Shown: positions 1-4,043 of the stretch, in pieces
How positions within the stretch are numbered: position 1 is the first letter of the stretch
Layout of the letters: every line of letters starts with the position of its first letter
From: a virus
Lineage: Duplodnaviria > Heunggongvirae > Uroviricota > Caudoviricetes
IMG/VR virus record: IMGVR_UViG_3300022758_000415
Reading direction: 5' to 3' (one strand)
Length of the DNA: 4,043 bases
Notes under the pieces: model-generated
The model's input: only the letters and a program-made list of their open reading frames with translations
What the model was told of the DNA's origin: nothing
Database searches by the model: none
Translations under genes and position numbers: made by a program

Positions 1-149
1 CGACTTCCGTACCAGTCCGCAAAATCCCCTGAATATCAAGCCTTCCGTAGATTTACAGTTCGTCATGGTTCGCGTCAGATCGTTGACAGCCGCACTCCAT
101 GACGGGTAAAAAAGTGGATAAAATAATTTTACCCACCGGATTTTTACCC

Positions 150-1308
150 ATGCTCACCGTTAAGCAGATTGAAGCAGCAAAGCCGAAAGAAAAACCATAC
201 CGCCTTCTCGATGGTAATGGCCTGTACCTTTATGTCCCTGTGTCAGGGAAAAAGGTATGGCAGCTTCGCTACAAGATTGACGGTAAGGAGAAAATCCTGA
301 CCGTCGGAAAATATCCGCTTATGACTTTGCAGGAGGCAAGGGATAAAGCATGGACTGCGAGGAAAGACATCTCGGTTGGCATCGATCCGGTAAAGGCGAA
401 AAAGGCTTCGTCTAACAACAATTCCTTTAGTGCGATTTACAAGGAATGGTACGAGCACAAGAAGCAAGTCTGGTCAGTAGGCTATGCAACTGAACTTGCC
501 AAAATGTTTGATGACGACATTTTACCTATCATCGGCAGCCTTGAAATTCAGGATATTGAGCCGATGCAACTTCTGGAAGTAATCCGCAGATTTGAAGATC
601 GCGGTGCAATGGAGCGAGCCAACAAAGCACGCAGAAGATGCGGCGAGGTTTTCCGTTACGCTATTGTCACCGGAAGGGCTAAATATAACCCGGCACCTGA
701 CCTTGCTGACGCCATGAAGGGATACCGCAAGAAGAACTTCCCGTTTCTTCCTGCAGACCAGATCCCTGCATTCAACAAAGCACTGGCAACATTTTCAGGA
801 AGTATCGTATCGCTCATTGCGACCAAAGTTTTACGCTACACAGCCCTAAGAACGAAAGAGCTTCGTTCCATGCAATGGAAGAACGTCGATTTTGAAAACA
901 GGATTATCACTATCGACGCCAGTGTGATGAAGGGACGCAAGATTCATGTTGTCCCGATGTCGGACCAGGTGGTTGAACTTCTCACTACGCTAAGCTCAAT
1001 CACCAAACCAGTATCAGAGTTTGATTTTTGCCGGGCGCAACGATAAGAAGAAGCCAATCTGCGAGAACGCGGTACTGCTTGTGATCAAACAAATCGGCTA
1101 TGAAGGTCTGGAAAGCGGTCACGGATTCAGGCATGAATTCAGCACGATTATGAACGAGCACGAATGGCCTGCTGATGCTATTGAAGTACAACTGGCACAT
1201 GCCAACGGCGGATCTGTACGCGGAATTTACAACCATGCTCAGTATCTCGATAAGCGCAGAGAAATGATGCAGTGGTGGGCAGACTGGCTTGATGAAAAGG
1301 TGGAGTGA
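150..1308 (+). pseudogene. intS: P4-family tyrosine integrase (IntS-like), reading frame broken by a 1-nt indel around the T5 run at 1025-1029; would be intact if that run is really T4
   Basis: Seen: ORF 99-1046 translates to an N-terminal domain (MLTVKQIEAAKPKEKPYRLLDGNGLYLYV...WQLRYKIDGKE) resembling the P4 integrase N-terminus. ORF 1021-1308, in the +1 frame, carries the catalytic region (GHGFRHEF, LAH, VRGIYNHAQY, MMQWWADWLD). The span 150-1308 is 1159 nt, not a multiple of 3. Deleting one T at 1025-1029 gives a continuous ...PVSEFDFAGRNDKKKP... Start assigned to ATG 150 (MLTVKQ) rather than ATG 99 because homology begins there; no strong Shine-Dalgarno at either. The symbol intS is by analogy to the int-gtrA-gtrB arrangement I recall in E. 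coli K-12 CPS-53, not from a search. Confidence 0.85.
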
Positions 1309-1396
1309 ACCACCTTAACTATCGAATGACACAAATCCTTGCAATCCAGTGCAAAGCTTTGTGTACCAGAGTTTTTCTTCATCAACTACCGCAAGT

Positions 1397-1406
1397 ATCG
1401 ATCGAT
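1397..1406. repeat. Perfect 10-bp palindrome ATCGATCGAT containing the only Dam GATC site in the int-gtrA intergenic region; regulatory role unproven
   Basis: Seen: ATCGATCGAT at 1397-1406 is self-complementary and is immediately followed by TTGAGA (1406-1411), a -35-like hexamer about 50 nt upstream of the gtrA ATG. No convincing -10 at canonical spacing. Confidence 0.25.
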
Positions 1407-1457
1407 TGAGACTTGGATGATAGACTTCATGCCTTTCAGAACTCATTGATTAAATAA

Positions 1458-1820
1458 ATGTTAAAGCTATTTGCAAAGTACACCTCGATTGGTGTGCTGA
1501 ACACACTTATACACTGGGTGGTTTTTGGTGTATGTATCTATGCCGCGCATACCAATCAGGCTCTGGCAAACTTCGCAGGTTTCGTTGTGGCTGTGAGTTT
1601 TAGCTTCTTCGCGAATGCAAAATTCACATTCAAAGCATCGACTACAACGATGCGCTACATGTTATTTGTCGGGTTCATGGGAACACTGAGTGCAACTGTT
1701 GGATGGGCTGCTGATAGATGTTCACTTCCTCCAATTATCACTCTCGTCACCTTTTCCGCCATCAGCCTGGTGTGCGGTTTCGTCTATTCAAAGTTCATTG
1801 TCTTTAGGGATGCGAAATGA
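1458..1820 (+). CDS. gtrA: GtrA, small 4-helix membrane protein of the O-antigen glucosylation system (flippase for undecaprenyl-phosphate glucose)
   Basis: Seen: 120-aa hydrophobic protein ([25 protein letters not shown]...[10 protein letters not shown]) matching my recollection of the highly conserved GtrA/YfdG family. Stop TGA 1818-1820 overlaps the gtrB ATG 1817-1819 (ATGA). Sits directly upstream of a GT2 gtrB. Weak Shine-Dalgarno. Confidence 0.9.
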
Positions 1821-2716
1821 AGATATCTCTTGTAGTTCCTGTCTTCAATGAAGAAGAAGCGATACCAATTTTTTATAAAACGGTACGTGAATTCGAAGAG
1901 TTGAAGCCATATGAAGTGGAAATTGTTTTCATAAATGACGGAAGCAAAGACGCTACGGAGTCAATTATTAATGCTCTGGCTGTTTCTGATCCGCTAGTTG
2001 TTCCGCTGTCATTTACACGCAACTTTGGTAAAGAACCAGCATTGTTTGCAGGGTTAGACCATGCAACTGGCGATGCCGTGATTCCAATTGATGTTGACCT
2101 GCAAGACCCGATTGAGGTCATTCCTCATCTTATTGAAAAGTGGCAGGCAGGTGCTGATATGGTGCTGGCAAAGCGCTCTGACAGATCAACTGATGGTAGG
2201 TTAAAGCGTAAAACTGCTGAGTGGTTTTATAAACTTCACAACAAAATTAGTAATCCGCAGATTGAAGAGAACGTTGGTGACTTCCGTCTTATGTCACGAG
2301 AGATGGTAGAAAATATCAAACTACTGCCAGAGCGTAACCTGTTTATGAAAGGCGTTTTATCTTGGGTTGGCGGTAAGACGGATGTTGTTGAATACATCCG
2401 TGCTGAACGCGTTGCCGGAAGCACAAAGTTCAATGGCTGGAAGCTCTGGAACCTGGCGCTTGAGGGGATTACAAGTTTCTCGACCTTCCCCTTGCGCGTG
2501 TGGACTTACATCGGTCTACTTGTTGCGGGACTCTCGTTCCTTTACGGGGTGTGGATGATTTTCGACACATTGGTGTTCGGTAATGCTGTCCGTGGTTATC
2601 CATCGCTATTGGTTTCAATTCTTTTCCTGGGGGGAATTCAGTTGATAGGTATTGGTGTGCTTGGGGAATACATTGGCAGAATATATGTCGAAGTAAATCA
2701 AGACCAAGATATATAA
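1817..2716 (+). CDS. gtrB: GtrB, GT2-family bactoprenol glucosyltransferase; C-terminus as sequenced is probably frameshifted, authentic stop predicted at 2737-2739
   Basis: Seen: GT2 N-terminus [17 protein letters not shown], DxD-type motif IDVDLQDP, two C-terminal hydrophobic helices, and LGEYIGRIY as in ArnC/GtrB. RBS AGGGA about 6 nt upstream of the ATG. The annotated frame ends ...EVNQDQDI, while the +1 frame from about 2696 reads [14 protein letters not shown], containing the RPRY motif conserved at ArnC/GtrB C-termini. Confidence 0.9.
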
Positions 2717-2731
2717 TTAAGGGGTCTAAAG

Positions 2732-3138
2732 ATGTTTAAATTAACGCGATATGAAATGCCAGCGATACTTATAGTCGCTTGCTTCTTCCTTCCATTCTTT
2801 TATATGCCTCCTTTTGTGGATGATGTAGCAAGATATTCATACGGATATATCGGGCTAGCTTCTCAAGGTCGATTTCTTACCGAGTTGTATTACATCCTTT
2901 TGAATTCATCAGGAAGTTGATCTCGCCAGATGTTTATCAACTGAACCTTGTTGTTTCATTTGTTATCATGATAGTAGCCTGCAATTACTTTGCTGAATCT
3001 GTGTTTGGCAAGCAATGGATTGCAAAAACAATCACGATATGTGTTTTAATTTGTTCTCCATTTTATATTGAAAACATGTCATACCACATTGATGTTATTG
3101 GAATGTCGGCATCGTTTTCTTTGGCTATGCTGGAGTAG
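2732..3138 (+). pseudogene. N-terminal remnant (about 134 codons after correcting one frameshift) of a serotype-specific GT-C glucosyltransferase (gtr type gene); frameshifted and truncated
   Basis: Seen: occupies the third position of the gtr operon, with RBS AAGGGG upstream of ATG 2732. Hydrophobic N-terminus followed by PFVDDVARYSYG, which resembles the D[DE]xxRY first periplasmic loop motif of GT-C enzymes such as ArnT. ORFs 2732-2920 and 2917-3138 join if the T4 run at 2898-2901 is T5 (...ELYYILFEFIRKLISPDVYQ...). The frame ends at TAG 3136-3138, far short of the 400-500 aa expected for this family. Markedly AT-richer than its neighbours by eye. Confidence 0.55.
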
Positions 3139-3283
3139 CTGTTGCGGTATCGCAGTAATGACGAGTGTCAACAAACTTATCCATGCCATCGATATCAAGT
3201 ACGCAAAACCATGTGTGATTCGGCATTTCAACAGATGGTATTTGTTGCCCACGTCGACGTTTATCAATAAGACATACAGTCAT
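3125..3283 (-). CDS. Short 52-codon ORF translationally coupled to the upstream hypothetical gene; possibly the 5' remnant of a truncated gene
   Basis: Seen: ATG (complement of 3281-3283) overlaps the TGA stop of the 3826-3280 gene as ATGA. Translation is MTVCLIDKRRRGQQIPSVEMPNHTWFCVLDIDGMDKFVDTRHYCDTATATPA, ending at TAG (complement of 3125-3127). It was not in the supplied ORF track, presumably because it is short. It ends within about 14 nt of the end of the gtr-type remnant. Confidence 0.25.
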   Translation of the reverse strand: MTVCLIDKRRRGQQIPSVEMPNHTWFCVLDIDGMDKFVDTRHYCDTATATPA

Positions 3284-3826
3284 GGTTCCACCTTCTCTAT
3301 TTGCTTAAGACCGTCTCTCACTGCATTAAGTACGCGTTCCAGATACTGGTATTTCGGGTTTGGTACCGTTGGCCAGTCGGCATACCACGGATCATCACCA
3401 AAGAGATTCAGCAGTTTGTTACCGACGCCGAAACAACAGCAGCTTTCTTTTACGTCATCGGCGTTTTCCGCCTCGTCCCACATTTCGCGAGCCTGTACCG
3501 CGTCGATTTCTTTCTCTCTTCGTAACTTTATGATTTCTGACTTCACGAAAAGCAGATTTGCATCGTTGTCATCGTCGACCGTGCTTAGCAGTTGAGGGTC
3601 GAAAATTGTCGATTAGATAGTCGTTGCTAACTCGCTTAATGAACGTCTGCACATCATCACCGCCCATAGCAAACCAAGCCGCAGTCCACGCCTTTCCGTA
3701 GCAGGTGATGGTGATTCTTCCCTTACCAGGTTCGTAGTTTTCAATCATCACTCGAACCGGATCTAGTCGCTCTGCACCGGTTATAACGAATGACAACACA
3801 TCAATCTTTTCAACCGTTACACTCAC
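3280..3826 (-). CDS. Hypothetical acidic protein of about 180 aa, function unknown; interrupted as sequenced by a 1-nt indel at the A4 run 3602-3605
   Basis: Seen: GTG start at 3826-3824 preceded by a strong Shine-Dalgarno AAGGAGG (complement of 3834-3840) with a 7-nt spacer. ORFs 3826-3569 and 3546-3280 on the - strand join into one protein (...SNDYLIDNF/DPQLLSTVDDDNDANLLF...) if one base is removed from the homopolymer. Central acidic stretch, CCC triplet and a PWYADWPTVPNPKYQYL C-terminal region. I do not recognise the family. Confidence 0.6.
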
Positions 3827-3866
3827 TGGTTCGCCTCCTTTGCGAAGCTGGTCGGCGACTCGTTAA

Positions 3867-3894
3867 GTGATATGTAGCAATCTCCAAATGTTAA
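3867..3894 (-). promoter_or_regulatory. Candidate sigma70 promoter for the - strand hypothetical gene (-35 TTAACA, 16-nt spacer, -10 TATCAC)
   Basis: Seen: on the - strand, TTAACA (complement of 3889-3894) and TATCAC (complement of 3867-3872) separated by 16 nt, about 40 nt upstream of the GTG start. Hexamer match only, so weak. Confidence 0.2.
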
Positions 3895-4043
3895 CGAACC
3901 GCTCGACTGCATATGCTCCATAGGCCATCTCCACGCCCTGCGCCCGTACCTTCAGCCAAGAAAGCGTCGGTGGCTGTGGTTTCCGATATCGTTAATTTCA
4001 GGAAGAATCTCTTCCCATGTAGCGATATCGCCATTCAAATGCC

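What the first reader, a model, noticed from the sequence alone, without database searches (positions are those of the whole stretch)
1..4043. Four of four neighbouring genes carry single-base homopolymer indels: sequencing artefact or prophage decay
The integrase (extra T), gtrB (missing A), gtr-type (missing T) and the - strand hypothetical (extra A/T) each have a 1-nt indel in a 3-5 nt homopolymer. The protein sequences are otherwise well conserved, with no internal stops from substitutions. Mixed insertions and deletions confined to homopolymers are the classic signature of uncorrected long-read or flow-based sequencing error. The alternative is slipped-strand inactivation of a cryptic prophage. 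The two readings give opposite functional conclusions.
Basis: inference. Interest (0 to 1): 0.6.

Follow-up and report, generated by a model that had tools for sequence, protein, structure and literature searches.

The report
Sequencing-error frameshifts in prophage contig
The broken genes on this short E. coli prophage contig are almost certainly base-calling or consensus errors (ten one-base insertions or deletions and no substitutions against identical public sequences), not real gene decay, so the finding is ordinary.

Summary
The window is one whole 4043-bp JGI/IMG contig. Bases 6-3133 are the argW-side end of an E. coli P22/Sf6-like prophage (intS, gtrA, gtrB, the 5' part of a gtrC-type gene). 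Bases 3134-4043 carry early genes of another lambdoid prophage on the - strand (DUF7739, phiTE_072 family, YfdS family).

Against public sequences that are otherwise identical, the window has 0 substitutions and 10 single-base indels: 4 on the left and 6 on the right, 7 insertions and 3 deletions. Only four lie in runs of 3-5 bases, two are not homopolymer events at all, and five fall in the last 212 bases of the contig.

Undoing one indel each in IntS, GtrB and the phiTE_072-family protein gives proteins identical to alleles seen on at least 1000, 78 and 51 public contigs. The frameshifted products occur on this contig only. None of the ten indel alleles is present in 5426 complete E. coli genomes.

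This is an indel-only sequencing or consensus artefact, not slipped-strand pseudogenisation. The tail-to-tail joint at 3133|3134 occurs nowhere else and is probably chimeric. The biology underneath is an ordinary, intact O-antigen glucosylation module.

The parts
1..5 (.). Five terminal bases (CGACT) that match no reference
   Evidence: L003 and L001 read ...GCTCCCA before TCCGTACC. Every alignment to genomes and phages starts at window base 6.
108..113 (+). Indel 1: +A (A5 to A6), intergenic, upstream of intS
   Evidence: Absent from 5426 complete genomes; the three apparent matches carry a T-to-A substitution instead.
150..1308 (+). intS, a P4-type prophage tyrosine integrase, split by indel 2
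   Evidence: The repaired 385-aa product equals the L003 protein, occurs on at least 1000 contigs, and matches PF13356, PF22022 and PF00589.
1024..1024 (+). Indel 2: +A inserted between G and T5; not a homopolymer event
   Evidence: The window allele is in 0 IMG/VR contigs; the reference allele is in at least 120.
1458..1820 (+). gtrA, intact
   Evidence: the exact protein is on 87 contigs; PF04138.
1817..2739 (+). gtrB (GT2 bactoprenol glucosyltransferase). Indel 3 shifts the frame after codon 292, so the ORF ends early at 2716.
   Evidence: The repaired 307-aa product is on 78 contigs; PF00535.
2692..2694 (+). Indel 3: -A (A4 to A3)
   Evidence: The window allele is absent from metagenome contigs and from complete genomes.
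2732..3133 (+). 5' part (codons 1-134 of 473) of the serotype-specific gtrC-type glucosyltransferase, with indel 4; cut at the joint
   Evidence: P0048; PF14264; one search shows the L003 sequence continuing past the joint.
2912..2913 (+). Indel 4: -A (A3 to A2)
3115..3134 (.). Joint between the two parental sequences (3133|3134), preceded by 14/19 imperfect identity between them
   Evidence: No record spans the joint.
3134..3283 (-). 5' part (about 50 of 99 codons) of a DUF7739 gene; no indel
   Evidence: PF24881 on the full-length reference protein.
3280..3826 (-). phiTE_072-family gene (181 aa), split by indel 5
   Evidence: The repaired product is on 51 contigs; PF26211 is precomputed for its homologues.
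3601..3604 (+). Indel 5: +A (A3 to A4)
3823..4043 (-). 3' part of a YfdS-family gene, running off the contig end, with indels 6-10
3832..3832 (+). Indel 6: +C between T and G (not a homopolymer event), two codons before the YfdS stop and just upstream of the phiTE_072 start
3857..3857 (+). Indel 7: -A (A2 to A1)
3923..3923 (+). Indel 8: +G (G1 to G2)
3949..3949 (+). Indel 9: +C (C1 to C2)
3983..3983 (+). Indel 10: +C (C1 to C2)

Best explanation
The frameshifts are errors of sequencing or consensus calling in a short, probably low-coverage JGI/IMG contig. They are not mutations in the organism. The DNA that was sequenced most likely carried intact intS-gtrA-gtrB-gtrC of an argW-integrated P22/Sf6-like E. 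coli prophage, and intact early genes (DUF7739, phiTE_072 family, YfdS family) of a second lambdoid prophage. The read or consensus process added or dropped single bases at ten places, increasingly towards the contig end. It probably also joined the two loci artificially at 3133|3134.

Shown: the indel-only difference, the uniqueness of the alleles, the clustering at the contig end, and the uniqueness and odd orientation of the joint. Inferred: the platform (an indel-dominated chemistry such as PacBio CLR or a flow-based method), the low coverage, and the way the chimera formed.
For: 1. Window 6-3133 against an E. coli genome (L003, GCA_052515165.1): 3130 aligned columns, 0 mismatches, 4 one-base gaps.
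2. Window 3134-4043 against two independent IMG/VR contigs (L052 from an isolate, L027 from a metagenome): 0 mismatches, 6 one-base gaps.
3. Even in mismatch-repair-defective E. coli, substitutions outnumber small indels in coding sequence about 7:1 (6.02 against 0.85 per CDS, PMC8510543). At that ratio, ten indels with no substitution has a probability of about 8e-10.
4. Five of the ten indels lie in the last 212 bases of the contig (binomial P = 8e-5). A contig end is a property of the assembly, not of the organism.
5. The frameshifted products (P0001, P0031, P0046, P0061) each occur on one contig of 4043 bp, from JGI/IMG only, among about 15 billion proteins. The repaired IntS, GtrB and phiTE_072-family proteins are exact matches to alleles on at least 1000, 78 and 51 contigs from NCBI, Logan, ENA and JGI.
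6. A query built from the ten window alleles matches none of them in 5426 complete E. coli genomes (its three hits carry a T-to-A substitution). The matching query built from the reference alleles hits 2401 genomes.
7. The int allele of the window is in 0 IMG/VR contigs and the reference allele in at least 120. The gtrB allele of the window is in 0 JGI metagenome contigs.
8. Only 4 of 10 indels are in runs of 3 or more bases, and two are insertions of a base unlike either neighbour. That fits random insertion error better than replication slippage.
9. All six A/T-type events are A on the + strand, although T runs are slightly more frequent there (80 against 69 runs of 3 or more).
Against: No reads, coverage or platform record could be consulted, so the error process itself is inferred. 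The exact-protein look-ups would miss a strain that shares a frameshift but differs elsewhere in the protein; the DNA allele searches partly cover that gap. Four of the indels are in A3-A5 runs, where real slippage does occur at a low rate. The imperfect homology at the joint (14/19) fits real illegitimate recombination as well as template switching in vitro.
Confidence: 0.93

Rival explanations
1. Real pseudogenisation: a cryptic prophage remnant whose genes were inactivated in vivo by slipped-strand single-base indels.
For: Four indels lie in A3-A5 runs. The gtrC-type and DUF7739 genes are truncated, as in decaying prophages. Prophage remnants of this locus do exist: L004 keeps gtrABC but only the 3' end of int.
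Against: There are ten indels and no substitution over 4038 aligned bases (P about 8e-10 at the mismatch-repair-defective ratio). Six of the ten are outside runs of 3 or more bases, where replication slippage is rare, since the indel rate rises with run length (PMC8510543). They cluster at the contig end. No allele is shared with 5426 complete genomes, IMG/VR or JGI metagenome contigs. The frameshifted proteins occur only on this contig.
Confidence: 0.03
2. The indels are errors, but the joint at 3133|3134 is real: a rearrangement formed by illegitimate, microhomology-assisted recombination between two prophages resident in one E. coli strain.
For: The two parental sequences share 14/19 identity, including a 9-mer, right at the joint (P about 1e-5 for one fixed register). 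Both halves seem to occur in one isolate: the NCBI protein accessions EMX5569558.1 and EMX5570528-30 belong to one numbering series. That they come from one assembly is my inference. A shared word this short is unlikely to cause a de Bruijn-graph mis-join (own knowledge).
Against: No record spans the joint in 5426 complete E. coli genomes, PLSDB plasmids, IMG/VR or JGI metagenome contigs. The two genes meet tail to tail, both losing their 3' ends. On natural contigs that carry IntS and this module on one locus, int and the module point the same way (L036, L016), so a simple deletion cannot give this arrangement. In the exact-match reference the right half belongs to a prophage with its own lambda-type integrase (L052). 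The contig is demonstrably error-laden. Template switching in vitro also prefers short homology (own knowledge).
Confidence: 0.15
3. Phase variation: the homopolymer tracts act as contingency switches that turn O-antigen glucosylation and integrase on and off.
For: gtr operons are known to be phase-variable in Salmonella (own knowledge). Three gtr or int genes carry frameshifts.
Against: The tracts are only A3-A5 or absent, far shorter than slippage-prone contingency tracts. Known gtr phase variation works through Dam/OxyR epigenetic control, not tract slippage (own knowledge). No other genome shows length variation at these sites. Hypothetical genes and an intergenic site are hit just as much.
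Confidence: 0.01

Closest known systems
Gene-fragmenting indel errors in uncorrected long-read or flow-based assemblies (for example as described for the Kastor tool, PMC12007338)
   Same: Single-base insertions and deletions, without substitutions, create frameshifts and early stops that mimic pseudogenes. They are detected by comparison with near-identical references.
   Different: The platform is unknown here. Only 4 of 10 events are in runs of 3 or more bases. Insertions dominate 7:3, and two insert a base unlike either neighbour, which a flow-based chemistry could hardly produce at those sites (own reasoning). That makes a PacBio-CLR-like profile more likely than 454 or Ion Torrent.
The intS-gtrABC O-antigen glucosylation module of argW-integrated P22/Sf6/HK620-like E. 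coli prophages (K-12 CPS-53 intS-yfdG-yfdH-yfdI is the cryptic relative)
   Same: The gene order is tRNA-Arg side, intS, gtrA, gtrB, then the serotype-specific glucosyltransferase. The sequence is identical to L003 apart from the indels and 95.4% identical to NCTC11121.
   Different: The window lacks the tRNA itself, stops inside gtrC at codon 134, and continues into unrelated phage genes.
Chimeric contigs or reads formed by template switching at short homology (for example in multiple-displacement amplification)
   Same: Two unlinked loci are joined in inverted (tail-to-tail) orientation at a short imperfect homology. The joint is unique to this one contig.
   Different: There is no evidence on how the library was prepared, and a real rearrangement cannot be excluded.

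Membership tests
Uncorrected indel-type sequencing or consensus error | Differences from otherwise identical independent sequences are indels only | tested here: met
   0 mismatches and 4 gaps in 3130 columns; 0 mismatches and 6 gaps in 911 columns.
Uncorrected indel-type sequencing or consensus error | The variant alleles are singletons, absent from independent assemblies | tested here: met
   with positive controls.
Uncorrected indel-type sequencing or consensus error | Error density follows assembly properties, with contig ends or low coverage worse | tested here: met
   5 of 10 indels in the last 212 of 4038 bases, P = 8e-5.
Uncorrected indel-type sequencing or consensus error | Raw reads, platform and coverage show the calls are unsupported | not testable with these tools
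   The contig's record could not be retrieved, so no reads or metadata were available.
Genuine prophage pseudogenes (decay of a cryptic prophage) | Inactivating lesions are accompanied by substitutions at the neutral rate and are shared by related genomes | tested here: not met
   There are no substitutions and no shared alleles. The expected substitution-to-indel ratio is at least 7:1.
Slipped-strand contingency (phase-variable) locus | A long homopolymer or short tandem tract whose length varies among genomes | tested here: not met
   The tracts are 0-5 bases long. No length variation at these sites was found in 5426 genomes.
gtrABC O-antigen glucosylation cluster | GtrA (PF04138), GtrB (GT2, PF00535) and a GtrC-type glucosyltransferase (PF14264) in that order | tested here: met
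   In the window gtrC is represented only by codons 1-134.
gtrABC O-antigen glucosylation cluster | Carried next to a phage integrase at a tRNA attachment site | tested here: met
   intS lies directly upstream. In L001, L003 and L055 the same sequence follows tRNA-Arg. The window starts just past the tRNA.
IntS / P4-type tyrosine integrase | Arm-DNA-bind_3, central domain and Phage_integrase catalytic domain in one reading frame | tested here: inconclusive
   All domains are present once the A at 1024 is removed. As written in the window, the frame breaks at codon 292, inside the catalytic domain (residues 199-365).

The most novel reading that the evidence does not exclude
The indels are errors, but the tail-to-tail gtrC'/'DUF7739 joint is real. 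It would be a snapshot, caught in an environmental sample, of illegitimate recombination at a 19-base imperfect homology between two different prophages resident in one E. coli cell, which is the elementary step thought to generate phage mosaicism.
Probability: 0.12. Interest if true: 0.2.

Novelty: not a real feature. Interest (0 to 1): 0.05.

Why it matters
The main value is as a caution. Taken at face value, this contig would be annotated as a decayed prophage with a dead integrase and dead O-antigen-modifying genes. The evidence says the underlying genes are intact, common alleles. The case also gives a simple, reusable test that separates error from decay without any reads. The test has three parts: the substitution-to-indel ratio against the nearest public sequence, the position of lesions relative to contig ends, and an exact look-up of the repaired and unrepaired products. 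Nothing here bears on an open biological question.

Tried and rejected
- tRNA scan of the window: none found. The contig starts just past argW.
- Complete E. coli genomes gave only 95.4% (left half) and 93-98% (right half) references. That is too distant to separate errors from divergence. The identical references came from an exact GtrA look-up and an IMG/VR 24-mer scan.
- My first 24-mer for the right half found nothing because it spanned what turned out to be indel 7.
- Retrieving the contig's own record through its frameshifted GtrB failed.
- The junction 25-mer was absent from IMG/VR and JGI metagenome contigs. The window itself is evidently not in those collections.
- The genome-contig scan returned only an odd 425-bp contig.
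- PMC3478608 (wild-type E. coli mutation spectrum) is not held. I used the mismatch-repair-defective data of PMC8510543 instead, which is the conservative choice.
- Considered and rejected: programmed frameshifting or transcriptional slippage (the runs are too short, and the sites include non-runs and an intergenic site), and phase variation (see rivals).
- A simple internal deletion of one prophage was rejected as the origin of the joint, because the orientation is wrong for IntS-type prophages. It would fit only an L002-like layout, where the module lies downstream of the replication genes.
Full report
**What the window is.** The ORF list and the comparison with annotated E. coli genomes show two parts. 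Bases 6-3133 are the left end of an argW-integrated P22/Sf6/HK620-like prophage: intS (150-1308), gtrA (1458-1820), gtrB (1817-2739) and the first 134 codons of a 473-codon gtrC-type glucosyltransferase (2732-3133). Bases 3134-4043 carry three genes on the - strand: the first 50 or so codons of a DUF7739 gene (3134-3283), a 181-codon phiTE_072-family gene (3280-3826), and the 3' part of a YfdS-family gene (3823-4043). Pfam confirms the identities: Arm-DNA-bind_3, Phage_int_M and Phage_integrase for IntS; GtrA_DPMS_TM; Glycos_transf_2; Glucos_trans_II; DUF7739. An exact-protein look-up shows that the window's broken products each exist on a single contig of exactly 4043 bp, from JGI/IMG only. 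The window is therefore one whole short JGI/IMG contig.

**Checking the observation.** Complete E. coli genomes were only 93-98% identical, which is too far to tell an error from divergence. Two routes gave identical references. The exact GtrA protein led to L003 (GCA_052515165.1). A 24-mer from the right half led to two IMG/VR contigs, L052 from an isolate and L027 from a metagenome.

Against L003, window 6-3133 has 0 mismatches and 4 one-base gaps:
- +A at 108-113 (A5 to A6, intergenic)
- +A at 1024 (between G and an unchanged T5 run, in intS)
- -A at 2694 (A4 to A3, in gtrB)
- -A at 2913 (A3 to A2, in gtrC)

Against L052 and L027, window 3134-4043 has 0 mismatches and 6 one-base gaps:
- +A at 3602 (A3 to A4, in the phiTE_072-family gene)
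- +C at 3832 (between T and G)
- -A at 3857 (A2 to A1)
- +G at 3923
- +C at 3949
- +C at 3983

The last five are all in the YfdS-family gene.

The int event is an inserted A outside any run, and the gtr-type event is a missing A. There are ten indels rather than four, and only four lie in runs of 3 or more bases. gtrA and the DUF7739 fragment are untouched.

**Artefact or decay.** Five independent lines point to artefact.

1. *Spectrum.* There are ten indels and no substitution in 4038 aligned bases. Even in mismatch-repair-defective E. coli, the most indel-prone background, coding sequences accumulate about 7 substitutions per small indel (6.02 against 0.85 per CDS), and the indel rate depends on run length (PMC8510543). 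At that ratio, ten of ten events being indels has a probability of about 8e-10.
2. *Position.* Five of the ten indels fall in the last 212 bases of the contig (P = 8e-5). Mutations cannot know where an assembler will end a contig, whereas falling coverage or read quality can produce this pattern.
3. *Uniqueness.*
   - The frameshifted proteins occur only on this contig among about 15 billion sequences.
   - Removing or adding the single base gives IntS, GtrB and phiTE_072-family proteins identical to alleles seen on at least 1000, 78 and 51 contigs from NCBI, Logan, ENA and JGI.
   - A query concatenating 40-41-mers centred on the ten window alleles found none of them in 5426 complete E. coli genomes. 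Its three hits are O157 genomes with a T-to-A substitution at the intergenic site.
   - The same construct with the reference alleles hit 2401 genomes.
   - The int allele is in 0 IMG/VR contigs, against at least 120 for the reference allele.
   - The gtrB allele is in 0 JGI metagenome contigs.
4. *Context.* Two insertions (1024, 3832) add a base unlike either neighbour, and four events are in runs of 1-2 bases. This is not what replication slippage does.
5. *Strand bias.* All six A/T-type events are A on the + strand, although T runs are slightly more common there. This is modest evidence for a strand-specific read process.

Which platform produced this is inference. Insertions outnumber deletions 7:3, there are no substitutions, and some insertions are of a non-neighbouring base. 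That resembles a low-coverage PacBio-CLR-type consensus more than 454 or Ion Torrent (own knowledge). Gene-fragmenting indel errors of this kind in long-read assemblies are well documented (PMC12007338).

**The joint at 3133|3134.** Homology to the gtrC-type gene stops at 3133 and homology to DUF7739 starts at 3134. The two genes meet tail to tail and each loses its 3' end. The parental sequences share 14 of 19 bases just left of the joint, including TTTTCTTTG.

No record spans the joint in 5426 complete genomes, PLSDB plasmids, IMG/VR or JGI metagenome contigs. In the exact-match reference L052, the right-hand genes sit in the early-left operon (erf, ssb, exonuclease, abc, DUF2737, YfdS, phiTE_072, DUF7739, Ea22-like) of a prophage with its own lambda-type integrase. 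On natural contigs that carry IntS and this module on one locus, both are transcribed in the same direction (L036, L016). In the window they oppose each other. A simple deletion inside such an IntS prophage cannot give this arrangement. It would fit only a layout like L002, where the module lies downstream of the replication genes.

NCBI accession numbers suggest that one isolate carries both loci about 970 proteins apart (EMX5569558.1 against EMX5570528-30). That they belong to one assembly is my inference. I therefore read the joint as a chimera of two loci of one strain, formed during library preparation or assembly (about 0.8). A real microhomology-assisted rearrangement is the minority alternative. 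The five unmatched bases at the very start of the contig fit an untrimmed or poor-quality end.

**Comparison with what is known.** The underlying biology is the well-known phage-borne O-antigen glucosylation module beside a P4-type integrase at tRNA-Arg (argW). The cluster passes its membership tests, apart from the window's truncation of gtrC. The 'pseudogene' and 'contingency locus' readings each fail a defining feature that I tested: there are no substitutions, no shared alleles and no long tracts.

**Verdict.** Sequencing or consensus artefact, confidence 0.93. Real slipped-strand decay about 0.03, phase variation about 0.01. Interest is low (0.05). The only mildly interesting residue is the possibility, about 0.12-0.15, that the joint is a real inter-prophage recombination product. 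Decisive tests are the contig's platform and coverage record, and accurate reads mapped over the ten sites and the joint.

Noticed in passing
window 3115-3134: The gtrC-type gene (codon 134) is joined tail to tail to a DUF7739 gene (codon about 50) from a different prophage. The parental sequences share 14/19 bases at the joint. No public record spans it, and the orientation is opposite to that on natural IntS prophage contigs.
   Followed up: yes
window 1-5: The first five bases (CGACT) match neither the chromosomal or prophage sequence next to argW nor any phage. Every alignment starts at base 6. This is possibly an untrimmed adapter or a poor read end.
   Followed up: partly
L054 135-285 (NZ_JACJFM010000154.1, Oceanospirillum sediminis D5, 425-bp contig): A tiny contig in a marine bacterium's draft genome is 94.6% identical to the YfdS-family gene of an E. 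coli prophage. It is probably enterobacterial or phage contamination of that assembly.
   Followed up: partly
L002 3870-5187 compared with L005 2851-4120 and L052 6982-8272: The same YfdS / phiTE_072 / DUF7739 three-gene module lies downstream of the replication genes (toward the terminase) in one E. coli prophage. In others it lies in the early-left operon next to abc, erf and ssb. This is a neat example of module shuffling.
   Followed up: no
L055 213-220 (NZ_CP018250.1 and two other O157 genomes): Three O157 genomes have a T-to-A substitution that turns GGGTAAAAA into GGGAAAAAA upstream of intS. It mimics the window's A6 run, but it is a substitution and not an insertion.
   Followed up: yes
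L004 5791-8697 (GCA_027224725.1): Another E. coli genome carries the same gtrABC with only the last 60 or so bases of intS, next to a PBP5-type carboxypeptidase gene instead of argW. It looks like a displaced or decayed copy of the module, and it differs from the window by 1 substitution apart from the window's own indels.
   Followed up: no
one search hits P0067-P0071: Several Logan/ENA homologues of the phiTE_072-family protein are 230-282 aa instead of 181 aa and carry extra Pfam domains (PF24881, PF04448). They look like fusions with neighbouring genes or ORF-calling artefacts on short-read contigs.
   Followed up: no
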